A DNA stretch of 42,232 nt from Candidatus Scatovivens sp. (GTDB lineage Bacteria > Bacillota > Clostridia > TANB77 > CAG-508): assembly GCA_045602645.1 (NCBI GenBank), contig JAZSBZ010000085.1, positions 1 through 42,232 on the forward strand, written 5' to 3'. Below are positions 2,040 to 42,232 of the stretch, in pieces. The translations under genes and the position numbers were made by a program. Every line of letters starts with the position of its first letter. Within the stretch, counting starts at the first letter, position 1. Below the pieces are notes generated by a model. That model was given only the letters and a program-made list of their open reading frames with translations. It was not told the DNA's origin and made no database searches.

Positions 2040-2588
2040 CTATCCATTCATTAATAAATAAGCAAATGCTAATACTATAACTATAATTACAATAAGTGGA
2101 ATACCACCTGTTTTTTTCCTTGGCATTTCTCCTGATAAATCTTCCTCTTCATTTGATGTTACATCATTATTTATAACGTCTTCTTTATCCACTACTTTAG
2201 TATTACAATTTTCTTCTGCAGTTGTACTTATTATCTCTCCATTTGGACCAATACAAATTTCATTACCTTCACTATCAAGTTCATATGTTTCATCTAAATC
2301 CATAACATATCCAAATGAACCATTAGCATCTAACAGTGCAGCAACTTTTTCTTCATCTTCTTTTGATACTATCAAATATACAATATGATAGTCATTTCCT
2401 TTATATCTATCTTCTTCAATTTGAATATCATATTCAACAAAATTCTCTTCCATAATTTTACTTACTTCTTTTATTTCATTTGCAATATGATTTTCATCTT
2501 CTACAAAACTACCTGTAACTTCTAATTGAATTTTTTGAAACTTTTTCCCCACCACGCGTACTCCTATCTTGCAAGAATTACTAAACAT
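2040..2588 (-). CDS. hypothetical acidic protein with C-terminal transmembrane anchor
   Basis: ORF with tail anchor GGIPLIVIIVIVLAFAYLLM. The ORF-track start overlaps ruvA by 25 nt. A GTG near 2552-2555 preceded by AGGAG is a more likely start. Confidence 0.5.
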   Translation of the reverse strand: MFSNSCKIGVRVVGKKFQKIQLEVTGSFVEDENHIANEIKEVSKIMEENFVEYDIQIEEDRYKGNDYHIVYLIVSKEDEEKVAALLDANGSFGYVMDLDETYELDSEGNEICIGPNGEIISTTAEENCNTKVVDKEDVINNDVTSNEEEDLSGEMPRKKTGGIPLIVIIVIVLAFAYLLMNG

Positions 2589-3166
2589 TTCTTAATTAAT
2601 TCTTCTACAGATACATCTGTATTAGCAATTTTTTCAAATGCTTTTTCAATTTCTTTCTTATTATATCCAAGTATTTGTAACGCCTGTGTTGCTTCGTCAA
2701 CATTTTCACCTGTTTTAACATTACAAACTTCTTCATCACAAGAGCTTCCCGCAAGTTCTTGTTCTTTCTTTAATTTATCTTGAAGTTCTAATATAATTCT
2801 TTGTGCAGTTTTAGGTCCAATTCCTGGAATCTTCTTTAGTAATGACACATTGTTTGAAATAATTGCACAAGCAAATCCTGCTGGAGTTATATTAGAAAGC
2901 ATAGTTATAGCTGATTTTGCTCCAACACCACTAACTGATAATAAAAGTTCAAACATTTTTAATTCTTCATGTGTTAAGAATCCATATAAACTAATATTAT
3001 CTTCTCTTACATAATAATGTGTATGAACTTTAACTTTTGATCCTATTTCACCTACATCATTTATAGACATATTAGACATAAAAATCTTATATCCAATACC
3101 TCCAACATCTATTACAACATAATTGCTAGATTTCTCTTCTAGACTACCTTTTATATATGCAAACAT
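2564..3166 (-). CDS. ruvA: Holliday junction branch-migration complex subunit RuvA
   Basis: 200 aa. N-terminus MFAYIKGSL...VVIDVGGIGYKI, HhH motifs (VSGVGAKSAI, IPGIGPKTAQRI) and a C-terminal domain III (ALQILGYNKKEIEKA). Confidence 0.93.
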   Translation of the reverse strand: MFAYIKGSLEEKSSNYVVIDVGGIGYKIFMSNMSINDVGEIGSKVKVHTHYYVREDNISLYGFLTHEELKMFELLLSVSGVGAKSAITMLSNITPAGFACAIISNNVSLLKKIPGIGPKTAQRIILELQDKLKKEQELAGSSCDEEVCNVKTGENVDEATQALQILGYNKKEIEKAFEKIANTDVSVEELIKKCLVILAR

Positions 3167-3261
3167 GTTATTTTCTCCTTTGTTTTTCCAAACATCTTTT
3201 TGCTACATTTTATCACATATTTTAATTTAATCAATACTTTAAAAAAATTTTTATATCCTAT

Positions 3262-3302
3262 TTTAAATAAAAAGAGTAAGATCATTTTTATAACCTTACT
3301 CT
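3262..3302 (-). terminator. intrinsic terminator after the 1740-aa gene
   Basis: Minus-strand hairpin AGAGTAAG/CTTACTCT followed by a T-rich run (TTTTATTTAAAA), 13 nt after the stop. Confidence 0.6.
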
Positions 3303-3314
3303 CCTTAATATTAA

Positions 3315-6300
3315 TTATCTTATTTCATCATCTTGTGATGGTTTTTCTTCGGAATCCTTTTTATCTCCAAAAGAAACATTTCTTACTGTTCTTTTTTCAT
3401 TTTCTTCCTTAATTCTTGCATCTAATCCATCTATTATCATATCAAGTTTCTCTTGATCTTTAACTGTAATTATTCCACTTGAAGATTTTGAAATAGCACC
3501 TTCTTCAACTAATTTATCAAAGTTTATAAATTTACCATCTCTTTCTGAATCAATAACTAAACCTTTATTTTTCTTTGAAGCAATTCTAGCAAGTCCAAGC
3601 AATTCTCTTGCATATTCCGCTTTTGCTGCTTCTGCATCTTCTCCTTCTGGAAGAAGTAATGAATCTTCTATTGTAATTGAATTATCATTTTCAGATGCAA
3701 AAATATACCAATCATCACATTCACCAAACAATAATACAACATCTTTATTATAAAACGCTGAATAATTTTCTCTTAAAATTGCTGCCATATTGTTAGATTC
3801 TTGTCTAGCTAATATACTAGCAGCCTTAACATCTTCACCAGCTCTTGCATTCATATCTTTTACTCTTTGAATTAAATCAAAATGTATATCTGTATTTTTC
3901 TTTCTATTTATATCTCTTATTCTTGTATAACCATATCTAACATCTTGTGGTGCTGTTTTATGATCAAGTGATACAACATCTTCATTTTGAGCAATAGAAT
4001 ATTGACTATATGAATCAAGATATAAACGATGATCTACATTCATACCAGTATATTTCTTACCAGCTTCTAAAGGTGCAACACGTGAAGTTGTATCATCTCT
4101 TTTGATATTTGGAATATATTTTAAAAGATCATCACATCCTCCACCAATTGTAACTTCTTTTATTACTAAAGCATCATATTGTTCTTTAGTTATTTTGCCA
4201 TCTGCCAAAAATTGATCTAATACTTTTTTATCAACTTCAATCATTCTTTTAGCAACTTCTTGATATACTTCAAATATTTCTTGATGTGCATTTCTAGCTG
4301 CTAAACTTGCATGTAATGTATTTGGTATCTCAACATTGTCAAAGCATACTCTATCGCCATTTCTCCAAGTCCAACTTTGAGAAACAACTTGTATAACTTC
4401 TCCATTTTCATCAACTTCCTCAACAACAAATACAGAACCGTTTTCTTCAAGTGCTGAGTGAAGCATTGATGACTCTCCTGGCTGCCCCTCTCCTAATCTT
4501 TGACAACAAGTTGTGATGTTACCTATTGTTAAATGAAGTGGATCATCTATTCTAACAATTCTACCAACAAAACGCTTTCCTTTATGACTTACTGGTGGTA
4601 CAGATTGTCTTTCTCTTTCTTTCATTTGATCATAGATTTTTTTAGCTACATCAAATTCTTCTTGTGAAAGTCCTGATTTTTTTGCTCTATACGCAAGTTC
4701 ATAATATCCCGGTTCAATATTATTATATGTAACGCTCTTAATATCATCAGCAAGTTCACTTACTTTATAAAGTCCTGCTTGAAATCTTGATTTAATATCT
4801 GGTTGACTAATAACCGCATCCATTCTAGCATTCATCATTTGGAACAAAGTATAATATTCAGGTTTTCTTAATATTTCAGTCATATTAGCCATAAAGAATT
4901 CTCTGAAATTTTCTGAGTATGGTTGTCTTAAACCAGCAAACATAATCTCACCTTTTTCAAAAGTAAATACTCCTGGAAGTTCTAATTCTTTTAATATTGT
5001 ATATGCTTCTCTTATACCTTCTTCGCTTCTATCTTTAAGTTCTAATGTTTTTTCTGTAGGTATTCTATAACCTGTTTCACCATATAATCTTTGCTCTAAT
5101 GCAACAAGTTCTGGCTCAGTCATTCTTTGTTTTAAATTTCCTAGTTTTCTAATCCATCCTTGTCCAATTTTATCTTTTTCTGCTCCCACTATATCAACAA
5201 CTGACATATTTAGTCTCTTTGATATATCTTCGTTTGCATTCATATTACCCAAAAACATCATTAAATCTTCTAAATGATCTGTAACATGTGGTGAATAGAA
5301 TGTTGTACCATCTGGTTTTAATCTAGAAAATTCCTGTGTAATTAATTCTCTTATTCTATCTAAATCTAGTTTTTCATTTTCTGATAATGTTTTCTTTAAT
5401 GTATTATTTAAAACATCTCTTAATATTTTAATATTCTCTGGTGTTTCAATTACATTTTCACCTAAATATGCATCTAATGGTTCTGCAAGCAAGCTAAGTT
5501 TTTCTTGAACATTAGCAGAAACAGCAGCTTTAGTAATTGATTTAATTCTATCATCTTTTATATTAACACCATTTTCTCTTGTTACTTTTGCAATCAATTC
5601 TTCTATTGATCCATCAAATCCTTCTTCTAAAGCTTGATTTAATGATTTATATATAGCAAAAGTTCCTTTTCCTCCAGGTAATGCTGGATTAACTTTATCA
5701 AACAACGCTCCAACGATTTTTAAATTACCTGTTATAGTATGCATGTTTTCATATATACCAGATACAGCAACACCTGTTGTTCTAATTGCTTCTTCAAGTT
5801 CTGCTTCATCTATCTCTGGTAATTTTAAAACTTCTTTAGAAGCACCATAACCTAAAAATGCATACATTGATACCATAATTTGTTCTGCAGTATCTCTTCT
5901 ATAGTTATCTGAAATATCAAATTTACTTAATCTCTCTAAATCTTTGAATTCTCCAAAATCAAATGTATCTAATTTATCATCTGGACAATGAATTACATAT
6001 CCTGGTGTAGAAATAATATATTCTCTAAATTTATCTTTTTTAGATTCTAATAATTTTCTACCATTTAATATTTTCTCATCTTGTGTTTCTTCTCCAGATA
6101 ATATAAGTTCTACTTCTTCATCTAAATATCCATCTTTTTCTTTTAATTCTTTAATTGCATAATATTCTGGTCTTGTATCCAATAATTCTTTAAATCTTTT
6201 TATTGATTGTACAGAACTATTTCCAATTATTTGAATAGCCTCTGGATCTTTTTGAATTAATTCATATGCTTCATCTCCAAATAATTTCACAAATTCAACA

Positions 6301-8537
6301 AGTTTTGAATCACAATTTGCTAAAGATAAATCTTTGCCCTTTAGAAAATCAACATATTCTAAATGTGTTGTTAAATCATTTATTGTAAGTTGACCATTTT
6401 GCATTGATTTTTGGATACCATTCTCTTCGCAATATCTTTTATAATATTTAATTTTCAATTCTTCTGGAGCTTCCGGTAATAAGAATAATTCTGGATGTTT
6501 TTCTTTGAAGTAATCTGGAGCTTTTTCTCCATATTCTATACTTCCTCTTAATATTTCATTTTCAATATAATCTTTTATTGTAGTTAAAATTTCTTCACTA
6601 CTTAATCCATCATAATCTTTTATATCAGCTTTATATGCATAATTTCCAACTTCTCTTATTAATTGATATAAAACATCTTGAGGTAAAGTTATTATACTAT
6701 CCTTTGCTGGACAACGTCTAAATGCTAAGAATCTATTCTTACTTAAAATTTCTTGTACATAAGGTAAATTAGCTTCCTCATCTTCCATGAATCTTATTTC
6801 GTCAAAACTAACTGTACCTTCATAGAATTTTTCTTGCCATTCTTCAGGCATTGATTCATCCACAAATAAATCTGGATTTGAATCTCTAAATTTCCCTTTC
6901 ATATGTCTATGTCCAAGTGGTCTAGATATATAATTCCAATCAGTTGGTCCATACACAATCATTCTTCTTACTGCTTCATCAAAATGTTCTTCTGAATATT
7001 CTTTGCTATCATCTCCACCAACATACTCACCTGTTTTTAAATCATAATTCTTTGTAAAAATTGTTCTTCTAGAATCATGAACATTTCCTGCATAATGGAA
7101 AAAAGCATCGTCTATTAATTTTGCTCTTGCAAAACCATTTTCAGAAAAATATCCTCCATTTTGTCTATCAAATTCAAGAACTCTTCTTGTACCATATCTA
7201 TCAAAGAATTTCGCAATTTCTCCACTAGCTAAATCTCCTGGTGTTAATCCTGATTCTATTAATAGTCCAATAACACTCTCATCTTCTAGAACTCTTTCTA
7301 CATAATTTCTAGAATATGAATCTGTAACTAAATCTAATGCTAAGTCTTTATAGTCAATATATTCATACATTTCTGTATCTGAAAAATCTATATAATCTTT
7401 ATGTCTTTTTATATAATCAAGTGCTTTTCCTTTAAGTTCAGTCGAAATTTCTTCACCTGGCTTTGTTAAATCTAAATCATTAGCAGCTTGCATAATCATA
7501 TTTGGATTTTGACGCAAGAAGAATTTTGTAAATTCAGGTTCTCTATCTAGAACATATCTTAATTTTTCTTCTGTTATTTCTTCATAATCAAATCTTAAAC
7601 TATAAGTAGCAGAAATTGCATTTAATATATTCTTTCCTTCAAATAGTTCTTTATTTGCTATTATATCTTCTAAAGTTAACTCTTGTTTTAAAAATCCTTC
7701 TCTTAATTCTGTATTCTCTCCAAAATCAATATAATATTCAGGCAAGCCATCTCTAATAAAAGGTATATTTTCAAAACGTTCATAAATTCTTTTAAACGAA
7801 TATTTACTAGCAAGCTCACCTCTTACTTCATCAATCATAAGAGCTTTTGCGGTATCAAAATCATATTCTTGTCCTGATTCTTCAATTTTATAAACAGCTC
7901 TTCCTAAAAGATCTACCACATGTTCATCTTCTAATATAGTATCATCTATCTCTACAGCTTTATCCCAACCAATTCTTTGAACAATGTTTCTAATTTTATA
8001 GTCTAAATAATCAAGTGGTATTTTACCTGCTAAATCAAATCTTTTTACATCACTTAAAGTTAAACTTTTTGAATCATATCTTGCTCTAGCCTCTGGATCA
8101 TCAATTCCACTATCAGGAAATGCATCTGGATGTTCTTGCATTGCATCTTCAACAAATGCTTCATCAAAACTTTCTGTTGAATATCCAAGTTTTTCTCTAT
8201 CAAAAGTAAAGTTTCTAACATTACAACCCTTTAATCTTACCTCAAGTCTCATTGTTCCCATTTCTTCTGGTATAGTTAAATAATTAAAGTCTATATTAGC
8301 ACCTGTATTTTCTAGATTAAAATCTTCGTTAAATACAACATAATCTTTCCATTCTTCAAATGGTATTCCACTTAAATCACTATTTCTCAAAAGTTCAATA
8401 CTTTTTACTAGTTCTTCTTCTAATGCCTCTGCTTCCGTAATAGATAAATCATCCATTGTTCCATCTTTTACTTTTGCATACACACTTTGTGTAAAAGCAC
8501 ATATTTCTCTAAATCTTTCAATTGTCATTTTTTCCAT
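3315..8537 (-). CDS. giant (1740 aa) cytoplasmic orphan protein, function unknown
   Basis: Uninterrupted 5.2-kb ORF with host-like AT-rich codon usage and an AAAGGA SD. No signal peptide, TM segment or obvious Walker A. Has a Cys/His-containing C-terminal module (TIGNITTCCQRLGEGQPGESSMLHSALEENGSVFVVEE...QSWTWRNGDRVCFDNVE). Confidence 0.85.
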   Translation of the reverse strand: MEKMTIERFREICAFTQSVYAKVKDGTMDDLSITEAEALEEELVKSIELLRNSDLSGIPFEEWKDYVVFNEDFNLENTGANIDFNYLTIPEEMGTMRLEVRLKGCNVRNFTFDREKLGYSTESFDEAFVEDAMQEHPDAFPDSGIDDPEARARYDSKSLTLSDVKRFDLAGKIPLDYLDYKIRNIVQRIGWDKAVEIDDTILEDEHVVDLLGRAVYKIEESGQEYDFDTAKALMIDEVRGELASKYSFKRIYERFENIPFIRDGLPEYYIDFGENTELREGFLKQELTLEDIIANKELFEGKNILNAISATYSLRFDYEEITEEKLRYVLDREPEFTKFFLRQNPNMIMQAANDLDLTKPGEEISTELKGKALDYIKRHKDYIDFSDTEMYEYIDYKDLALDLVTDSYSRNYVERVLEDESVIGLLIESGLTPGDLASGEIAKFFDRYGTRRVLEFDRQNGGYFSENGFARAKLIDDAFFHYAGNVHDSRRTIFTKNYDLKTGEYVGGDDSKEYSEEHFDEAVRRMIVYGPTDWNYISRPLGHRHMKGKFRDSNPDLFVDESMPEEWQEKFYEGTVSFDEIRFMEDEEANLPYVQEILSKNRFLAFRRCPAKDSIITLPQDVLYQLIREVGNYAYKADIKDYDGLSSEEILTTIKDYIENEILRGSIEYGEKAPDYFKEKHPELFLLPEAPEELKIKYYKRYCEENGIQKSMQNGQLTINDLTTHLEYVDFLKGKDLSLANCDSKLVEFVKLFGDEAYELIQKDPEAIQIIGNSSVQSIKRFKELLDTRPEYYAIKELKEKDGYLDEEVELILSGEETQDEKILNGRKLLESKKDKFREYIISTPGYVIHCPDDKLDTFDFGEFKDLERLSKFDISDNYRRDTAEQIMVSMYAFLGYGASKEVLKLPEIDEAELEEAIRTTGVAVSGIYENMHTITGNLKIVGALFDKVNPALPGGKGTFAIYKSLNQALEEGFDGSIEELIAKVTRENGVNIKDDRIKSITKAAVSANVQEKLSLLAEPLDAYLGENVIETPENIKILRDVLNNTLKKTLSENEKLDLDRIRELITQEFSRLKPDGTTFYSPHVTDHLEDLMMFLGNMNANEDISKRLNMSVVDIVGAEKDKIGQGWIRKLGNLKQRMTEPELVALEQRLYGETGYRIPTEKTLELKDRSEEGIREAYTILKELELPGVFTFEKGEIMFAGLRQPYSENFREFFMANMTEILRKPEYYTLFQMMNARMDAVISQPDIKSRFQAGLYKVSELADDIKSVTYNNIEPGYYELAYRAKKSGLSQEEFDVAKKIYDQMKERERQSVPPVSHKGKRFVGRIVRIDDPLHLTIGNITTCCQRLGEGQPGESSMLHSALEENGSVFVVEEVDENGEVIQVVSQSWTWRNGDRVCFDNVEIPNTLHASLAARNAHQEIFEVYQEVAKRMIEVDKKVLDQFLADGKITKEQYDALVIKEVTIGGGCDDLLKYIPNIKRDDTTSRVAPLEAGKKYTGMNVDHRLYLDSYSQYSIAQNEDVVSLDHKTAPQDVRYGYTRIRDINRKKNTDIHFDLIQRVKDMNARAGEDVKAASILARQESNNMAAILRENYSAFYNKDVVLLFGECDDWYIFASENDNSITIEDSLLLPEGEDAEAAKAEYARELLGLARIASKKNKGLVIDSERDGKFINFDKLVEEGAISKSSSGIITVKDQEKLDMIIDGLDARIKEENEKRTVRNVSFGDKKDSEEKPSQDDEIR

Positions 8538-8572
8538 ATGATCAATTCCTTTTTCATCCTTTATATTTTTTA

Positions 8573-9445
8573 TTATCCAACTGGATACATTATTTTCTTT
8601 TTATGATAAAAACTACTATCTAAATGTTCTACTTCTTCTACATTATCTAAACTAGCATTTACAAATACATTATCTGCATCTACTAAGTTTATAAATCTAA
8701 ACGCATTATTTCCATCGCTAGTATATATACTTGCACCTTTTGATATTGACGAATTTATTTTTTCTAATACTTTTTCAAAAGTTCCACTTAAAAGTTCAAC
8801 TATCATACCTTTAGATCTAAATAATTGTAAATCTTTAAACGCTTCTGTTTTAAATTTATCATCATCAATGTATATATAATATTTATCACTTCTTTGTTTA
8901 TTATCTATAACAACATTATCAGTAACGATTATAGCTTTATCAAATCTTTCATAATAACATTCTTCAAATGGCATAATATCAATTAAATTTGGATCTAATC
9001 CATATTTTTCAAGGCTACTTTTAAATATTAGCATCAAACAATTTTTAACATCATTTTCTAAATACTCAAGATCAGATATTGTAATTGCATTTCTTGATTT
9101 AACTGCTTTAATAAAATATCTAAGCGCATCTAAAGTATTATCAACTTCAACAGCTAAGCTACCAACAGAAGTTGTATACACTCCTGAATAATAACTGTTT
9201 TTTACTATTGTTAAAGTCTTTTCTTTTTTGTAAAGTCCTTCTCCAGATTCTTCATCAAATACTTTTAATAATTCATCAAAAGTTATTTCATCTCCGCAAA
9301 CTTTTATTAAAGTTTCGAATAAATCTCTATTTTCTTCTACTCTACTTTTTGCATAACTAATAACCTTTTTATCAACACTATCGTCTTTAGAAAGGTTATA
9401 CACAGCATATGCTTTTTTCTTTAAATTAATTTGTTCAATATTCAT
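8573..9445 (-). CDS. truncated gamma-glutamyl-phosphate-reductase (ProA)-like protein, probably non-catalytic
   Basis: 290 aa. Blocks align by eye with ProA (VGSLAVEVD, VKSRNAITISDL, LEKYGLDPNLIDI, YIYIDDD, AFRFINLVDADNVFVNAS). It is about 125 aa shorter than ProA and I see no catalytic-Cys block. Confidence 0.5.
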   Translation of the reverse strand: MNIEQINLKKKAYAVYNLSKDDSVDKKVISYAKSRVEENRDLFETLIKVCGDEITFDELLKVFDEESGEGLYKKEKTLTIVKNSYYSGVYTTSVGSLAVEVDNTLDALRYFIKAVKSRNAITISDLEYLENDVKNCLMLIFKSSLEKYGLDPNLIDIMPFEECYYERFDKAIIVTDNVVIDNKQRSDKYYIYIDDDKFKTEAFKDLQLFRSKGMIVELLSGTFEKVLEKINSSISKGASIYTSDGNNAFRFINLVDADNVFVNASLDNVEEVEHLDSSFYHKKKIMYPVG

Positions 9446-9482
9446 ACTTTTTCACCCATTAAACGTAAATTTATACATTATA

Positions 9483-9511
9483 ATTATATATTTCACTATG
9501 TCTATATTCAA
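9483..9511 (-). promoter_or_regulatory. sigma-A-type promoter for the ProA-like/giant gene pair
   Basis: Minus strand reads TTGAAT, 17 nt, TATAAT, about 40 nt upstream of the 290-aa start. Confidence 0.45.
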
Positions 9512-9629: not shown

Positions 9630-9756
9630 AATTAAGCATTGTATGTAGATATGTATTTATTTGGTTAACTTCTCCCCGGTAGTTACCAAAATTAAAGTAA
9701 TATTTGCATTAAGCAAGTTAAATATTTTAAAATTTGAAATGGAGGGTATTTATACC

Positions 9757-10194
9757 ATGAATAATACTACATATAGCCCAAAAGCAGGCGAAATTGAAAG
9801 AAAATGGTATGTAATCGACGCTACTGGAAAATCAGTAGGTAGAGTTGCTACTGAAGTTGCAACATTATTAAGAGGAAAACATAAACCAACATTCACACCA
9901 AATCAAGATGTTGGAGATTACGTTATAGTTTTAAATTGTAAAGATGCTGTTTTAACAGGTCATAAATTAGATCAAAAAATGTATAGACATCATTCAGGAT
10001 TCATTGGAGGAATGAAAGAAACTCCAGCTAGAGTAATGATGGACAAAAATCCTGAAAAAGCAATGTTCTTAGCAGTTAAAGGAATGCTTCCTCACACAAG
10101 ATTAGGAAGACAAATGATCAAAAAATTAAGAGTTTATGCAGGAAGCGAACATGAAAACGCTGCTCAAAAACCAGAAGTTTGGGAGGTAAAATAA
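9757..10194 (+). CDS. rplM: 50S ribosomal protein L13
   Basis: [22 protein letters not shown]... is a canonical L13 N-terminus. ATG at 9757 is preceded by GGAGGG. The ORF-track start at 9661 is an upstream in-frame extension. Confidence 0.95.
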
Positions 10195-10195
10195 G

Positions 10196-10600
10196 ATGGC
10201 AAAAAAATCTGAAAATATAGTATTCCAAGGAACAGGTAGAAGAAAAGAATCAATTGCTAGAGTTAGATTAATGGCAGGAAAAGGAAATGTTACAGTTAAC
10301 GGAAAAACATTAGATGAATATTTCGGAACAGAAATATTAAAAGTTATCGTTAACCAACCATTCGCTGTTACAAACACAGTTGGAAAATATGATGTTGTAG
10401 TTAAAGTTGTTGGTGGTGGATACACAGGTCAAGCTGGTGCTATCAGACACGGAATCGCTAGAGCATTAGATGCTGCTAACTCAGAATTTAGACCAGCATT
10501 AAAAGCTAACGGATTCTTAACAAGAGATCCAAGAATGAAAGAAAGAAAGAAATACGGTATGAAAAAAGCTAGAAAAGCACCACAATTCTCAAAAAGATAA
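10196..10600 (+). CDS. rpsI: 30S ribosomal protein S9
   Basis: 134 aa ending ...RKAPQFSKR, with [19 protein letters not shown]. Confidence 0.96.
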
Positions 10601-25076: not shown

Positions 25077-27221
25077 TCACTTGAAAAGCATTTCAATAAG
25101 ACTCATCAGGTTATATTCAGCAAAGATACATACGAAGATGATCGATACTGTACTCATTATTTTGATCAGAATATCCAGAGACGGTCCAACCGTGTCTTTC
25201 AGCGGATCTCCGACCGTGTCGCCGACAACCGCAGCATGGTGCTCAGGAGTGCCTTTTCTACCGAGAGACTCGATATACTTTTTAGCATTATCCCATGCGC
25301 CACCGCTATTACCACAAAATACAGCAAGCATAATTGCAGCAATTGTTGCGCCGACAAGAATACCAGCAACAAACTCAGGTCCAAATACAAATCCGGAAAC
25401 AATCGGAACCAATACAGAAATCAAGGCAGGAACCTTCATCTCTCCCAAGGCACCGTTTGTCGCAATCTGAATACACTTCTTGTAGTTAGGCTTAGTCTTT
25501 CCCTCTCGAAGTCCAGGAATAGTCCTAAACTGGTTTCTTACCTCATCAACCATTTTCTGTGCAGAATTAGATACTGCTTTGATCAAGAGGCTAGAGAAAT
25601 AGAACGTAAGCGCTGCACCTACAAGTGCACCCACCAGCGTAAGCGGATTCATAAAGTCGAGTACGATGTCAGCCGTTACAGGTGTAAACGTATACAAATA
25701 GCTGATCATCAAAGATACAGTTGCAAACGCGGCCGATCCAATAGCAAAACCCTTGCCAATAGCCGCAGTTGTATTGCCAACCGCATCAAGTTTGTCAGTA
25801 ATTGCTCGAACGTCATCACCAAGATTACTCATCTCAGCAATTCCGCCAGCATTGTCACTAATAGGTCCATACGTGTCAACAGACACCGTAATGGTAACGA
25901 ATGAAAGCATACCTACCGCGGCCATGGCTACGCCAAATGTACCGGAGCAGAAATATGCAATAAGCAGTGCTGTGCCAAGACTAAGAACTGTAAGAAGTGT
26001 AGAACGCATGCCTACAGACAAACCTTCAGTAATAGTTATGGCGGGGCTGTTCTTACATGCTTCTGCAAGTCTCTGCGTGGGACGATAATCATAACTCGTA
26101 TAATATTCACTTATCATACCAATTACAATTCCACACCCGATACCTACAATCGCAGATACCCAAGGAGACATCATGCCAAGCTTAAACGGAAGAGCACCAA
26201 AGTCTTCTCCCCAAAACGTGACAAGTGTAAGAACGAGTGTAGCAACTGCAGTGAGTCCTGCAGAAAGCCAGGTTCCTTTATTCATTTCCTTATGAGGGTC
26301 GGTAATATTTTTTCTACCAAACACATACATAAGACCAATGATACAAGATACAAGGCCAAGTGCTACAAACATAATCGGGAACATATAGAGCTTCTCAAAA
26401 AGCTCAGGGCTGAAGCCCATATTCTTAGCCTGATACGAAATGCACAAATGGAACACAAGTACAATCGCACTGACAATGGCACCCATATAGGATTCCAAAA
26501 GGTCAGAGCCAAGACCTGCAGTATCACCAACGTTGTCACCAACGCAGTCAGCAATTACAGCAGGATTTCGAGGATCATCCTCAGGGATATTCTCTTCCGT
26601 TTTACCTACAAGGTCAGCACCCATATCAGCAGCTTTAGTATAAATACCACCACCAACACGGTTAAACATTGCGACAATAGAACATCCAAGTGCATAGGAC
26701 GTCAATGTCATCGAAAACGGTACAAACGAGATTCCGCACCAGTTAGTTACGCTTTCCAGTTGGCCAATTTGACCACCGTATACAAAGAAAATAATTACAA
26801 GGCCGATCAGTGCGCAACTACTGACTAAAAGTCCCATGACGGAACCGCCCCGAAGAGCTACCTTAAGCGTTGCACCAATATCTTTGGTGGTTCTCGCTGT
26901 ATTAGCAACTCTTACGTTTGCGTGTGTTGCCATCTGCATGCCTACATAACCTGCAATAGCGCTCATGAAAACGCCCAGTACAAACGCAACTGCGCTAGAT
27001 ACTGACAGGAAAACTGCAAACAGCAGGGCTAATGCTACGACTACTATGCTAAGAACCTTATACTCACTCATGAGAAAAGTCTTTGCACCTACCCGGATAG
27101 CTTTTGCTATCTCTTTCATTTGATTAGTACCTGACGGAAGTCGCCTGACTTTACTAAAGCCATACGCCGCGTAAACGACTCCCATTACGGCGATTGTGAT
27201 TACTGCGAACAATACTCTCAT
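25077..27221 (-). CDS. hppA: K+-dependent-type membrane-bound ion-translocating pyrophosphatase
   Basis: 714 aa, about 16 TM. Conserved blocks DNVGDTAGLGSDL, GNTTAAIGKGFAIGSAA, GGAWDNAKKY and VGDTVGDPLKDT. The Ala in GNTTAA marks the K+-dependent subfamily. Confidence 0.95.
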   Translation of the reverse strand: MRVLFAVITIAVMGVVYAAYGFSKVRRLPSGTNQMKEIAKAIRVGAKTFLMSEYKVLSIVVVALALLFAVFLSVSSAVAFVLGVFMSAIAGYVGMQMATHANVRVANTARTTKDIGATLKVALRGGSVMGLLVSSCALIGLVIIFFVYGGQIGQLESVTNWCGISFVPFSMTLTSYALGCSIVAMFNRVGGGIYTKAADMGADLVGKTEENIPEDDPRNPAVIADCVGDNVGDTAGLGSDLLESYMGAIVSAIVLVFHLCISYQAKNMGFSPELFEKLYMFPIMFVALGLVSCIIGLMYVFGRKNITDPHKEMNKGTWLSAGLTAVATLVLTLVTFWGEDFGALPFKLGMMSPWVSAIVGIGCGIVIGMISEYYTSYDYRPTQRLAEACKNSPAITITEGLSVGMRSTLLTVLSLGTALLIAYFCSGTFGVAMAAVGMLSFVTITVSVDTYGPISDNAGGIAEMSNLGDDVRAITDKLDAVGNTTAAIGKGFAIGSAAFATVSLMISYLYTFTPVTADIVLDFMNPLTLVGALVGAALTFYFSSLLIKAVSNSAQKMVDEVRNQFRTIPGLREGKTKPNYKKCIQIATNGALGEMKVPALISVLVPIVSGFVFGPEFVAGILVGATIAAIMLAVFCGNSGGAWDNAKKYIESLGRKGTPEHHAAVVGDTVGDPLKDTVGPSLDILIKIMSTVSIIFVCIFAEYNLMSLIEMLFK

Positions 27222-36180: not shown

Positions 36181-36248
36181 TTTAATTTCACCTCCACTTT
36201 ATTTGAATATATTTTATAAATTTCTTTACTAATATATTGTCGTCCTTT

Positions 36249-36303
36249 CAATAAGAAAAGACCTCTTTGATAACCCAAGTTCACAAGGTAATCAAAGAGG
36301 TCT
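36249..36303 (-). promoter_or_regulatory. terminator/attenuator hairpin in the rplA-rplJ spacer (L10-leader position)
   Basis: Perfect 13-bp stem AGACCTCTTTGAT/ATCAAAGAGGTCT followed by TTTTCTTATT, within a 207-nt spacer upstream of rplJ. Confidence 0.6.
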
Positions 36304-36387
36304 TTAAAATCCGATCTCTTAAATTTTCCTCGGTAAGATTTAGTTTATACTTACTGTCTTAGGTTATATATAATTTTTAATTATTAA

Positions 36388-41703: not shown

Positions 41704-41779
41704 TGGCTCCTCTTGTTGGACTCGAACCAACGACCTATCGGTTAACAGCCGAGCGCTCTACCAACTGAGCTAAAGAGGA
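41704..41779 (-). tRNA. tRNA-Asn (anticodon GTT), CCA encoded
   Basis: The reverse complement folds as a cloverleaf: acceptor TCCTCTT/AAGAGGA, anticodon loop CTGTTAA, T-arm GTTGG-TTCGAGT-CCAAC, and 3' GCCA. Confidence 0.95.
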
Positions 41780-41788
41780 ATATAAAAA

Positions 41789-41903
41789 CTGGCGACTTCC
41801 TATTTTCCCAACAAGGTAACTCGTAAGTATCTTCGGCACTAAGGAGCTTGACTTCTGTGTTCGGCATGGGAACAGGTATTTCCTCCTCGTTATTATCACC
41901 AGA
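41789..41903 (-). rRNA. rrf: 5S ribosomal RNA
   Basis: The reverse complement contains CCTGTTCCCATGCCGAACACAGAAGTCAAGC and ends ...GGAAGTCGCCAG. Length is about 115 nt. Confidence 0.93.
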
Positions 41904-41979
41904 AATTTTTGTATACTACTTTTTCATAGCACACTCAAAAATACATAGATAAATGTTACTCTTCGTCAGATAGAGCAAA

Positions 41980-42232
41980 ACTTGTGGTTAAGCCCTCGAT
42001 CTATTAGTAATGGTCAGCTACATGTATCACTACACTTCTACCTCCATCCTATCAACCAGGTCGTCTTCCTGGAATCTTACTATCTTACGATATGGGATAT
42101 CTTATCTTAGGGTGGGCTTCACACTTAGATGCTTTCAGCGTTTATCCCGTCCATACTTAGCTACTCAGCCGTGCCACTGGTGTGACAACTGATACACCAT
42201 CGGTATGTCCATCCTGGTCCTCTCGTACTAAG
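41980..42232 (-). rRNA. rrl: 23S ribosomal RNA, 3'-terminal part (continues beyond window)
   Basis: The reverse complement reads CTTAGTACGAGAGGACCAGGATGGACATACC...GCTGAAAGCATCTAAGTGTGAAGCCCACC..., which is the conserved 23S domain VI. The 3'-end position is approximate. Confidence 0.9.

What the first reader, a model, noticed from the sequence alone, without database searches (positions are those of the whole stretch)
3315..9445. Self-contained pair: degenerate ProA-like pseudoenzyme plus a 1740-aa cytoplasmic orphan giant
The two co-oriented genes are 35 nt apart with no hairpin between them. A TTGAAT-17-TATAAT promoter (9483-9511) lies upstream and a hairpin/T-run terminator (3262-3302) lies downstream, so this looks like an autonomous unit wedged between ruvA and rplM. 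The first product aligns by eye with gamma-glutamyl phosphate reductase. Compare E. coli ProA blocks LGVIGVIYE, LKTGNAVILRGG, LKSCGLPAGAVQAI, HIYVDES and RFVNEVDSSAVYVNAST. It is only 290 aa and lacks the stretch that carries the catalytic Cys, and no proB is nearby, so it looks like a recruited non-catalytic ALDH-fold scaffold. The second product is 1740 aa, acidic and predicted soluble. I find no Walker A, HExxH or secretion signal. Short helical motifs recur (PEEWQEKFY, PEELKIKYYKRY, PDYFKEKHPELF). A Cys/His-bearing C-terminal module (DDPLHLTIGNITTCCQRLGEGQPGESSMLHSA, then a beta-hairpin-like VFVVEEVDENGEVIQVVSQSW) is vaguely reminiscent of PcfJ-type domains found in large polyvalent proteins. 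Composition is host-like, so it is not a recent import. I cannot name any described system with this architecture.
Basis: partly seen in the sequence, partly recalled or inferred. Interest (0 to 1): 0.72.

Follow-up and report, generated by a model that had tools for sequence, protein, structure and literature searches.

The report
Dead ProA-like protein plus uncharacterised giant
Two neighbouring genes in an uncultured gut Clostridium encode a catalytically dead relative of the proline enzyme ProA and a 200 kDa cytoplasmic protein; they form a conserved pair from a large family that no database describes, and the giant probably ends in a new kind of transferase-like domain.

Summary
A 290-aa gene and a 1740-aa gene lie 35 nt apart on the minus strand, with no hairpin between them and a strong terminator hairpin after them. 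The promoter hexamers are present but are not above chance in this AT-rich DNA.

The small protein is a truncated ALDH/ProA homologue. It aligns with E. coli ProA residues 14-371 (hhalign E 2.4e-6). About 70 residues are missing, including the catalytic Cys.

The giant is not a true orphan. Its C-terminal half matches 1037 representative proteins (50% identity clusters), almost all unnamed proteins of 1100-1900 aa. No Pfam, NCBIfam, PHROGs or PADLOC model and no PDB sequence matches its core.

AlphaFold models are confident. The N-half is all-alpha with no PDB fold match. The C-half ends in a GNAT-like, probably tandem module that lacks the acetyl-CoA motif. Invariant residues include G1339, C1345, Q1346, D1400 and E1403, and these are also kept in phage proteins.

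A small-gene homologue lies next to the giant in all 22 relatives checked that have a long or C-half giant, in either gene order and in unrelated neighbourhoods.

PcfJ-like, polyvalent, adhesin and known-defence readings all fail. Function is unknown. My best guess is a two-subunit, scaffold-tethered transferase.

The parts
9477..9511 (-). Promoter-like hexamers upstream of the small gene: TTGAAT-17-TATAAT at 9511..9483, overlapping TAGACA-16-TATAAT at 9504..9477
   Evidence: and sequence. The count of such sites in the region is not above shuffles (46 against 47.9), so this is positional evidence only.
8573..9445 (-). Small gene, 290 aa: truncated, catalytically dead ProA/ALDH-fold protein
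   Evidence: Profile hit to ProA structures (8zok, E 4.4e-4). hhalign to E. coli ProA: probability 88.9%, E 2.4e-6, query 13-268 against ProA 14-371, with a gap opposite the catalytic 'STCNT' region.
8538..8572 (-). 35-nt spacer with an AGGA ribosome-binding site and no hairpin
3315..8537 (-). Giant gene, 1740 aa, 200 kDa, pI 4.75, cytoplasmic
8118..8537 (-). Giant residues 1-140: N-terminal cap. Helices plus a short beta-rich stretch carrying the conserved motifs DLSxIPFEEW, GANIDFN and GCNVRNF.
   Evidence: Replaced by BspA-type LRR_5 or DUF4116 repeats in relatives.
5958..8117 (-). Giant residues 141-860: all-alpha scaffold with no fold match in the PDB
   Evidence: Model pLDDT 89.9. Best Foldseek E against PDB is 1.5. 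The residue 441-860 unit recurs 3-6 times in distant relatives.
6822..6875 (-). Repeat motif copy 1, residues 555-572: PDLFVDESMPEEWQEKFY
   Evidence: conserved residues.
6441..6494 (-). Repeat motif copy 2, residues 682-699: PELFLLPEAPEELKIKYY
   Evidence: conserved residues.
4638..5957 (-). Giant residues 861-1300: mostly helical first part of the conserved C-half, including the KIGKGWIRK motif
4098..4637 (-). Giant residues 1301-1480: the 'CCQ' module with a GNAT-like fold (b1-a1-a2-b2-b3-b4-a3-b5). Residues invariant across the family and its phage relatives: G1339, C1345, Q1346, D1400, E1403, G1465.
   Evidence: Also found in Microcystis phage MaMV-DC ORF68L and in IMG/VR viral contigs.
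3318..4097 (-). Giant residues 1481-1740: second beta-rich, probably GNAT-like domain and an acidic tail
   Evidence: secondary structure. Tandem-GNAT proteins top the PDB matches.
3260..3307 (-). Intrinsic terminator: 18-bp hairpin plus a U-run, 8 nt after the giant's stop codon
   Evidence: dG -19.2 kcal/mol, z -5.8.

Best explanation
This is a chromosomal two-gene operon from a large, undescribed family found in low-GC gut Clostridia.

Gene 1 encodes a ProA-derived pseudoenzyme. It keeps the ALDH-fold framework but has lost the catalytic Cys segment and the glycine-rich cofactor loops.

Gene 2 encodes a 200 kDa cytoplasmic protein with three parts. An N-terminal cap is exchangeable in relatives for LRR or DUF4116 repeats. 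A long helical repeat scaffold follows. The conserved C-terminal half ends in a probably tandem GNAT-like module.

Proposed mechanism, all inferred:
- The two proteins form a complex.
- The N-terminal cap and scaffold bind a macromolecular target or localise the complex.
- The first GNAT-like domain transfers an acyl or aminoacyl group. It uses the invariant Cys1345-Gln1346 at the end of helix a1 and Asp1400/Glu1403 on strand b4. The donor is probably not held by the classical acetyl-CoA P-loop.
- The dead ALDH subunit acts as an adaptor or regulator. In about a quarter of relatives it may also tether the complex to the membrane through a C-terminal amphipathic helix.

Shown here: gene pairing, homology of the small protein to ProA without the catalytic Cys, the predicted folds and the conservation pattern. 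Not shown: complex formation, catalysis, donor, acceptor.
For: Pairing:
- 17 of 17 close and medium relatives have the small gene directly upstream on the same strand. Only 3 of them share the rplM/ruvA context.
- 5 of 5 distant giant loci with DNA have a small-gene homologue. In L028, L029, L034 and L036 it lies directly downstream of the giant. In L035 it lies upstream, separated by one small gene on the opposite strand. hmmsearch E-values run from 3.5e-80 to 1.3e-08.
- In L029, L034 and L036 the giant's stop overlaps the small gene's start by 14 nt, which suggests translational coupling.
- L016 pairs the small gene with a 1072-aa protein that has only DUF4116 repeats plus the C-half. The partnership is therefore with the C-half.
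- Paralogues with the same N-scaffold but a different C-terminus (P0045, P0047) have no small gene.

Small protein:
- Matches to ProA.
- Two distant family members pass the Pfam Aldedh gathering score (32.3 and 25.5 bits against 23).
- No Cys is invariant across the wider family.

Giant:
- AlphaFold models have pLDDT 84.7 and 89.9.
- The secondary-structure order of residues 1317-1465 equals the GNAT core.
- The top PDB matches and many viral matches are GNAT, tandem-GNAT or FemX proteins, some with probability 0.95-1.0.
- A 656-aa phage protein matches the C-half at E 8e-10.
- Polar invariant residues (C, Q, D, E, plus nearly invariant Q1387 and S1388) persist from Clostridia to cyanophage. 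This argues for a catalytic or ligand-binding site.

Membrane tail: 26 of 105 small homologues carry a basic amphipathic C-terminal helix (hydrophobic moment 0.66-0.99).
Against: - Foldseek E-values against PDB GNATs are weak (0.02-0.8), with very high rmsd over the long alignments.
- No GNAT, FemAB or other acyltransferase HMM hits any member.
- The Q/RxxGxG/A acetyl-CoA motif is absent after b4.
- I could not inspect model coordinates, so the clustering of invariant residues in one pocket is inferred from GNAT topology only.
- The window's own small protein lacks the amphipathic tail.
- Both partners could be non-catalytic.
Confidence: 0.45

Rival explanations
1. It is a conflict system: an anti-phage defence or an inter-microbial effector. 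The variable N-terminal repeats act as a sensor or targeting domain. The C-terminal enzyme domain is a swappable effector. The ALDH-like protein is an accessory or regulator. Phages carry the effector fold as a counter-measure or for their own use.
For: - The N-terminus is exchanged between a helical cap, BspA LRR_5 repeats and DUF4116 repeats.
- Paralogues P0045 and P0046 keep the N-scaffold but end in a different C-terminus. By eye it carries a Pol-beta-type nucleotidyltransferase motif, GSTGRGTNxPGDGDFD.
- The pair evolves much faster than its neighbours: 50-57% identity against 82-96% for RuvA and RplM in the same genomes.
- Several paralogues occur per genome, some in tandem (L018-L020, L028).
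- The pair sits at a different chromosomal site in each lineage.
- The core module occurs in phages.
Against: - No PADLOC hit.
- Flanking genes are housekeeping genes, not defence islands or mobile elements.
- There is no NTPase or other typical sensor switch.
- Composition is host-like.
- No homologues in plasmids.
- The position is conserved in three related genomes.
Confidence: 0.2
2. It is a non-enzymatic structural or scaffolding complex. Both the ALDH-like and the GNAT-like parts are pseudoenzymes, reused as interaction modules of a large cytoplasmic assembly, for example one linked to the cell envelope, cell division or sporulation.
For: - The small protein is clearly dead.
- The GNAT-like domains lack the cofactor motif.
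- More than half of the giant is helical repeat with no enzyme signature.
- The protein is very large and acidic.
- The amphipathic tails in relatives suggest a membrane-associated scaffold.
Against: The strictly invariant polar residues C1345, Q1346, D1400 and E1403 are kept even in small phage proteins that lack the scaffold. Such residues are typical of active sites rather than of interaction surfaces.
Confidence: 0.15
3. It is a polyvalent protein of a mobile element with a PcfJ-type domain.
For: Only a loose visual similarity of an 'E..M.H[CS] ... G ... strand-strand' pattern between the module and the PcfJ C-terminus.
Against: - No PF14284 hit in any of more than 50 members scanned.
- hhalign of the module profile against pCF10 PcfJ gives probability 0.16%.
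- No conjugation or phage genes nearby.
- No plasmid or phage tblastn hit for the C-half.
- None of the known domains typical of polyvalent proteins are present.
Confidence: 0.02

Closest known systems
Gamma-glutamyl phosphate reductase ProA (ALDH superfamily, Pfam PF00171)
   Same: The small protein aligns collinearly with ProA residues 14-371. The blocks GVIGVIYE, GNAVIL, HIYVD and VYVNAS are recognisable. Distant family members pass the Pfam Aldedh threshold.
   Different: - It is 290 aa against 417 aa.
- About 70 residues carrying the catalytic Cys are deleted.
- 'LRGG' and 'PRGG' are replaced by ISDLEY and IVTDN.
- The Asn aligned with ProA's 'RPNV' is not conserved.
- There is no proB nearby.
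- It is always paired with a giant gene.
- Some relatives add an amphipathic C-terminal helix.
Tandem-GNAT proteins (FemX, Legionella VipF, Eis-like acetyltransferases such as 3n7z and 2i00, clavulanate tandem-GNAT protein 2wpw)
   Same: These are the best structural matches to the predicted C-half. There are two consecutive beta-rich domains, the first with canonical GNAT strand and helix order. Like FemX, the module lacks the classical acetyl-CoA P-loop (FemX property from my own knowledge).
   Different: - No sequence-level relationship to any GNAT or FemAB model.
- A different invariant set (TxCCQ, QSW, FDNxE).
- The module is embedded at the end of a 1740-aa protein.
- It has an obligatory ALDH-like partner.
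- Match statistics are weak.
Protein acetyltransferase Pat/PatZ (a GNAT fused to a catalytically inactive NDP-forming acyl-CoA-synthetase-like domain; from my own knowledge)
   Same: The concept is similar: a GNAT-type transferase working with a large dead-enzyme module that serves regulation or oligomerisation.
   Different: The pseudoenzyme is unrelated (ALDH against acyl-CoA synthetase) and sits on a separate polypeptide. There is no sequence similarity, and Pat has a canonical acetyl-CoA site. This was not tested here beyond the absence of Pfam hits.
PcfJ-domain and polyvalent proteins of conjugative elements and phages (PMC5512222)
   Same: Very large multidomain proteins. The C-terminal module also occurs in phage proteins.
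   Different: No PcfJ homology, no recognisable polyvalent-protein domains, and a chromosomal housekeeping context.
BspA-type LRR (PF13306) and DUF4116 repeat proteins
   Same: Relatives of the giant carry these repeats in place of its N-terminal part.
   Different: The window protein has neither. No family member tested has a signal peptide or anchor, so these are not surface adhesins.

Membership tests
ALDH superfamily / ProA | Significant profile similarity to ProA or Aldedh across the fold | tested here: met
   The family profile hits ProA PDB chains (E 4.4e-4). hhalign against E. coli ProA gives probability 88.9%, E 2.4e-6 over 252 columns. The window protein alone is below the Pfam cut-off (12.2 against 23 bits). 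Family members L028_383 and L029_335 pass it and match the small-protein HMM at E 3e-20 and 3e-11.
ALDH superfamily / ProA | Catalytic cysteine (the 'STCNT' loop of E. coli ProA) | tested here: not met
   The alignment has a gap opposite ProA residues of roughly 245-315. No Cys is invariant in the wider small-protein family. C163 is invariant only in the near clade and aligns with a non-catalytic ProA region.
ALDH superfamily / ProA | Glycine-rich NAD(P)H-binding loops ('LRGGKE', 'IPRGG') | tested here: not met
   The aligned positions read ISDLEY and IIVTDN in the window protein and are Gly-free in the near clade. Reading these loops as cofactor-binding is from my own knowledge of ALDH folds.
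ALDH superfamily / ProA | Proline-pathway context (adjacent proB) | tested here: not met
   None of the 22 called genes in the syntenic locus L001 has a glutamate-kinase (amino-acid kinase) domain. The only conserved neighbour in all loci is the giant.
GNAT acyltransferase superfamily | Core topology b1-a1-a2-b2-b3-b4-a3-b5 | tested here: met
   DSSP of the pLDDT 84.7 model gives strands and helices in this order for residues 1317-1465. This is a prediction only.
GNAT acyltransferase superfamily | Significant structural match to solved GNATs | tested here: inconclusive
   The top PDB matches are GNAT, tandem-GNAT or FemX proteins, but E is 0.02-0.8. Probabilities reach 0.95 for single-domain matches. 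Viral GNATs also match.
GNAT acyltransferase superfamily | Acetyl-CoA pyrophosphate-binding motif Q/R-x-x-G-x-G/A after strand b4 | tested here: not met
   The segment after FDNVEIP has no conserved Gly motif across the family.
GNAT acyltransferase superfamily | Hit to a GNAT or FemAB sequence model | tested here: not met
   No such Pfam or NCBIfam hit, even at E<=1, for the module or for 50 relatives.
PcfJ-like domain (PF14284) | Sequence or profile similarity to PcfJ | tested here: not met
   No PF14284 hit. hhalign of module alignment A9 against pCF10 PcfJ gives probability 0.16%.
Polyvalent proteins of mobile elements | Several known conflict domains in one polypeptide, located on a phage or conjugative element | tested here: not met
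   No known domains. Chromosomal housekeeping flanks. No plasmid or phage tblastn hit.
Known anti-phage defence systems (PADLOC) | Match to a defence-protein model | tested here: not met
   0 families for both proteins.
Surface adhesins (LRR / giant surface proteins) | Signal peptide, transmembrane segment or wall anchor | tested here: not met
   No hydrophobic N-terminus or transmembrane segment in the window protein or in 11 relatives, including those with LRRs. This was a hydropathy scan only; no dedicated signal-peptide predictor was available.

The most novel reading that the evidence does not exclude
The pair founds a new class of two-component cytoplasmic machines, widespread in low-GC gut Clostridia. 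A modular giant combines an exchangeable recognition domain, a helical repeat ruler and a previously unrecognised Cys-dependent GNAT-fold catalytic domain (TxCCQ ... QSW ... FDNxE). That domain is shared with phages. It works only together with a dead ProA-derived subunit. The machine modifies a macromolecular target, either in envelope biogenesis at the membrane or in phage-host conflict.
Probability: 0.3. Interest if true: 0.8.

Novelty: categorically new. Interest (0 to 1): 0.65.

Why it matters
More than a thousand sequence clusters of 1100-1900-aa proteins from gut and rumen Clostridia share this C-terminal module, and phage proteins carry its core. None has a name, a domain model or a solved relative. 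That makes it one of the larger blind spots in gut-microbiome proteomes.

The strict pairing with a ProA-derived pseudoenzyme is a clean case of a core biosynthetic enzyme being recruited as a non-catalytic partner.

The invariant Cys-Gln and Asp-x-x-Glu constellation on a GNAT-like frame gives a directly testable hypothesis for a new transferase chemistry. If the conflict reading is right, it would add a new sensor-effector architecture. If the envelope reading is right, it would add a new lineage-specific cell-biology module.

Tried and rejected
- Pfam, NCBIfam, PHROGs and PADLOC scans of both proteins gave nothing significant. The same holds for 20 and then 30 relatives, apart from LRR and DUF4116 repeats in N-terminal parts.
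- PDB sequence searches with profiles of the whole giant (A1) and of the module (A9) gave nothing.
- Foldseek of the N-half against PDB gave no match.
- tblastn of the C-half against GenBank phages and PLSDB plasmids gave no match. A distant short family member did find Microcystis phage ORF68L.
- The PcfJ hypothesis is rejected.
- I considered a 4-Cys/His metal site (C1344, C1345, H1360, C1398, C1468). I rejected it as a general feature because only C1345, and nearly C1344, survive in the wider family.
- I considered E162-C163 of the small protein as a substitute active site. It is not conserved in the distant partners.
- The last word-indexed homology search, with module profile A9, returned only 5 fragments and no domain fusions.
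- A PDB search with the nucleotidyltransferase-like C-terminus of paralogue P0045 gave nothing. That assignment therefore rests on a motif seen by eye.
- Literature searches on PcfJ and polyvalent proteins, DUF4116, ProA-like with GNAT, and MaMV-DC found no description of this family.
- The first genome scan with alignment A1 failed for lack of a conserved stretch and succeeded with A3.
Full report
**1. Observation**

The small gene is 8573..9445(-) and encodes 290 aa. The giant gene is 3315..8537(-) and encodes 1740 aa. They lie between ruvA (2564..3166, -) and the divergent rplM-rpsI (9661..10600, +).

The 35-nt spacer carries an AGGA ribosome-binding site and does not fold (MFE -1 kcal/mol, z 0.01).

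Eight nucleotides after the giant's stop codon there is an 18-bp hairpin followed by a U-run. Its dG is -19.2 kcal/mol, z is -5.8, and 0 of 200 shuffles fold as well. The simple consensus scan missed it.

The TTGAAT-17-TATAAT hexamers at 9511..9483 exist, and an overlapping TAGACA-16-TATAAT scores higher. In this 28% GC DNA, promoter-like sites are no more frequent than in shuffles (46 against 47.9). Only their position speaks for them.

The giant is acidic (pI 4.75) and weighs 200 kDa. It has no Walker A, no HExxH, no transmembrane segment and no signal-peptide-like N-terminus.

The recurring motif occurs twice: PDLFVDESMPEEWQEKFY at 555-572 and PELFLLPEAPEELKIKYY at 682-699. Both copies contain residues that are invariant or nearly invariant in the family.

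GC3 is 0.098 for the giant and 0.100 for the small gene, against 0.08-0.12 for neighbouring genes. Composition is host-like.

**2. The small protein**

No library gives a significant hit for the single sequence. The only hits are weak ProA/Aldedh matches over residues 222-271.

The protein has 105 homologue clusters, all unnamed. A profile of 25 of them hits ProA crystal structures (8zok E 4.4e-4, also 1vlu and 4ghk).

I added five distant partners found later and ran hhalign against E. coli ProA. The alignment is collinear over 252 columns, query 13-268 against ProA 14-371, with probability 88.9% and E 2.4e-6.

It also leaves one large gap opposite ProA residues of roughly 245-315, which include the catalytic 'STCNT' segment. 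The ProA glycine loops 'LRGGKE' and 'IPRGG' align with ISDLEY and IIVTDN.

Two distant family members pass Pfam's Aldedh gathering score (32.3 and 25.5 bits against 23). They match the small-protein HMM at E 3e-20 and 3e-11. Homology to the ALDH superfamily is therefore secure by transitivity.

E162-C163 is invariant in the near clade but not in the wider family. No substitute catalytic Cys exists.

**3. The giant is not an orphan**

The word-indexed search found 48 clusters at 33-54% identity over the full length. None has a name or a Pfam domain.

An exhaustive HMMER search with a profile of the C-terminal half (residues 861-1740) found many more. It returned 1037 representative proteins at E<=1e-3, 536 at E<=1e-10 and 240 at E<=1e-30. 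Most are 1100-1900 aa with the match at their C-terminal end.

I built local HMMs for seven segments of the giant and scanned the listed representatives. The full architecture appears in 50 of them. A reduced N1-N3-C2-G1 architecture appears in 44. C-half-only proteins appear in about 40.

In distant members the residue 441-860 unit matches 3-6 times. The scaffold is therefore a helical repeat of variable copy number.

Pfam and NCBIfam scans of 30 distant members hit only BspA-type LRR_5 or DUF4116 repeats in some N-terminal parts. A profile of the whole protein and a profile of the core module find nothing in the PDB by sequence.

All genomic hits are low-GC (23-33%) metagenome-assembled genomes (MAGs) of uncultured Clostridia. 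Records include Ca. Scatovivens and MAGs whose names point to rabbit, human and rumen samples.

**4. Predicted structure**

Two AlphaFold2 jobs with 46-sequence alignments gave confident models. The N-half (1-870) has pLDDT 89.9 and the C-half (861-1740) has pLDDT 84.7.

The N-half is almost entirely helical, with a short beta-rich cap at residues 72-108. It has no fold match in the PDB (best E 1.5).

The C-half starts helical. At residues 1317-1465 it shows the order b1-a1-a2-b2-b3-b4-a3-b5, followed by a second beta-rich domain at about 1599-1692.

The top Foldseek matches in the PDB are GNAT-superfamily proteins. Tandem-GNAT proteins rank first (2wpw, 3n7z, VipF, FemX, 2i00). E-values are only 0.02-0.8, although probabilities reach 0.95 for single-domain matches.

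Against predicted viral structures the best match is an uncharacterised 656-aa phage protein (A0A7G9A3X2, E 8.2e-10, probability 1.0, 755 alignment columns). Many viral GNAT and FemAB proteins follow.

I conclude that the C-terminus has a GNAT-like, probably tandem, fold. This is a fold-level statement only. No GNAT or FemAB HMM hits, and the acetyl-CoA motif Q/RxxGxG/A is absent.

**5. The core 'CCQ' module**

I aligned residues 1301-1480 with distant bacterial members and three phage proteins. The phage proteins are Microcystis phage MaMV-DC ORF68L and proteins from two IMG/VR contigs.

Invariant residues are G1339, C1345, Q1346, D1400, E1403 and G1465. Nearly invariant residues are D1332, T1342, C1344, Q1387 and S1388.

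By GNAT topology these sit at the end of a1, on b3 and on b4. That is the face which forms the active-site cleft in GNAT enzymes. This placement is an inference, because I could not read the coordinates.

H1360, C1398 and C1468 are conserved only in the near clade. A Cys/His metal site is therefore not a general feature.

The PcfJ idea fails. There is no PF14284 hit, and hhalign of the module against pCF10 PcfJ gives probability 0.16%.

**6. The pair is the unit**

In all 17 loci holding a long homologue of the giant, the small gene lies directly upstream on the same strand. Only three of them share the rplM/ruvA neighbourhood. Clustering of all flanking ORFs shows that nothing else is conserved.

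All five distant-family loci with DNA also carry a small-gene homologue. In L028, L029, L034 and L036 it lies directly downstream of the giant. In L029, L034 and L036 it overlaps the giant's stop by 14 nt. In L035 it lies upstream, separated by one small gene on the opposite strand.

L016 pairs the small gene with a 1072-aa protein made of DUF4116 repeats plus the C-half only. The partnership is therefore with the C-half.

Paralogues that keep the N-scaffold but end differently have no small gene. These include P0045 and P0046, which by eye carry a nucleotidyltransferase motif, and P0047.

Neither do the module-only proteins (L022, L023), the extra paralogues (L018-L021) or the phage proteins.

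Within the three genomes that share the window's context, RplM is 92-96% identical and RuvA 82-85%. The small protein is only 49-57% identical and the giant 50-53%. The pair evolves fast.

**7. Interpretation**

Three things are shown:
- a conserved, probably co-translated two-gene module;
- a dead ProA-derived partner;
- a modular giant whose conserved end is a GNAT-like module with an active-site-like set of invariant polar residues.

The most economical mechanism is a two-subunit transferase. The N-terminal cap and scaffold recognise or position a target. The first GNAT-like domain carries out an acyl or aminoacyl transfer, possibly through Cys1345. The ALDH-like subunit acts as an adaptor or regulator.

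One clue to location comes from the small-protein relatives. Of 105 homologues, 26 carry a 45-70-aa extension ending in a basic amphipathic helix such as NPWYKRIIDAIKxFFKK (hydrophobic moment 0.66-0.99). This resembles membrane-targeting helices. The window copy lacks it.

I give this reading 0.45. The rival readings are:
- A conflict system (0.2). It is supported by the swappable ends, fast evolution, paralogue bursts and phage homologues. It is opposed by housekeeping contexts and the absence of defence signatures.
- A purely structural complex of two pseudoenzymes (0.15).
- The PcfJ/polyvalent reading (0.02).

**8. Novelty**

I could find no described system that combines these parts. The core module has no model in any library searched, and four literature searches found nothing.

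The component folds (ALDH, GNAT-like) are known, but the system is not. I therefore rate it categorically new. The caveat is that function is unproven and the GNAT assignment rests on predicted structure with weak match statistics.

Noticed in passing
window 25077-27221 (-): A membrane pyrophosphatase gene (phmmer E 9.5e-230 to 4av3) has GC 44% and GC3 0.38. Every other gene checked in the window has GC3 of 0.08-0.17. It is strongly atypical in composition and may be a recent horizontal acquisition.
   Followed up: partly
small-protein homologues P0107-P0153 (alignment A2, columns 301-382): 26 of 105 homologues of the 290-aa protein carry a low-complexity linker plus a basic amphipathic C-terminal helix, such as NPWYKRIIDAIKxFFKK or ILGKIKEFLRKLFK. 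This looks like a membrane-targeting sequence. The window copy ends right after the ALDH-like core.
   Followed up: partly
L018 3225-3344; L019 864-983; L020 1152-1271: Three paralogues in one MAG each split into a BspA-LRR ORF and a C-half ORF. The two ORFs overlap by about 10 nt at an identical junction (...AAGCGGATTAGATAAAGTATTAAG...). The frame change could be inherited from one disrupted copy or could be programmed.
   Followed up: partly
P0045 (L026 7001-11980), P0046: These paralogues share the giant's N-terminal 800 aa but end in a different C-terminus. By eye it carries a Pol-beta-type nucleotidyltransferase motif (ELIDTGSTGRGTNVPGDGDFDF ... DIDITY). There is no adjacent ALDH-like gene. 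A PDB sequence search of this part found nothing.
   Followed up: partly
L028 1249-17619: Three family paralogues lie in tandem (1872 aa, 1305 aa, and one cut off by the locus end). A single ALDH-like gene follows the first, and an RCC1/WD40-repeat protein of 1096 aa lies upstream.
   Followed up: partly
L015 6001-11372: The giant homologue in an Oscillospiraceae MAG is broken into ORFs of 228, 1222 and 358 aa. This is either a pseudogene or an assembly error.
   Followed up: no
L033 2684-4777 (Microcystis phage MaMV-DC ORF68L); L030 6768-9143; L032 7293-8744: Phage proteins of 483-791 aa, from hosts as different as cyanobacteria and a 52% GC lineage, carry the TxCCQ ... QSW ... FDNxE module with unrelated N-terminal parts. 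They are annotated as hypothetical and have no PHROG.
   Followed up: partly
window 2040-2588 (-): A 182-aa acidic protein with a C-terminal hydrophobic tail lies between ruvA and the MgsA/RarA-like gene, and its ORF overlaps the end of ruvA. This gene order is conserved in L001, L003 and L004. No ruvB lies next to ruvA.
   Followed up: no
window 36245-36381 (-); 41704-42232 (-): A ribosomal protein L10 leader lies at 36245-36381. The 3' end of an rRNA operon (the end of 23S rRNA, 5S rRNA and tRNA-Asn) lies at the window edge.
   Followed up: no
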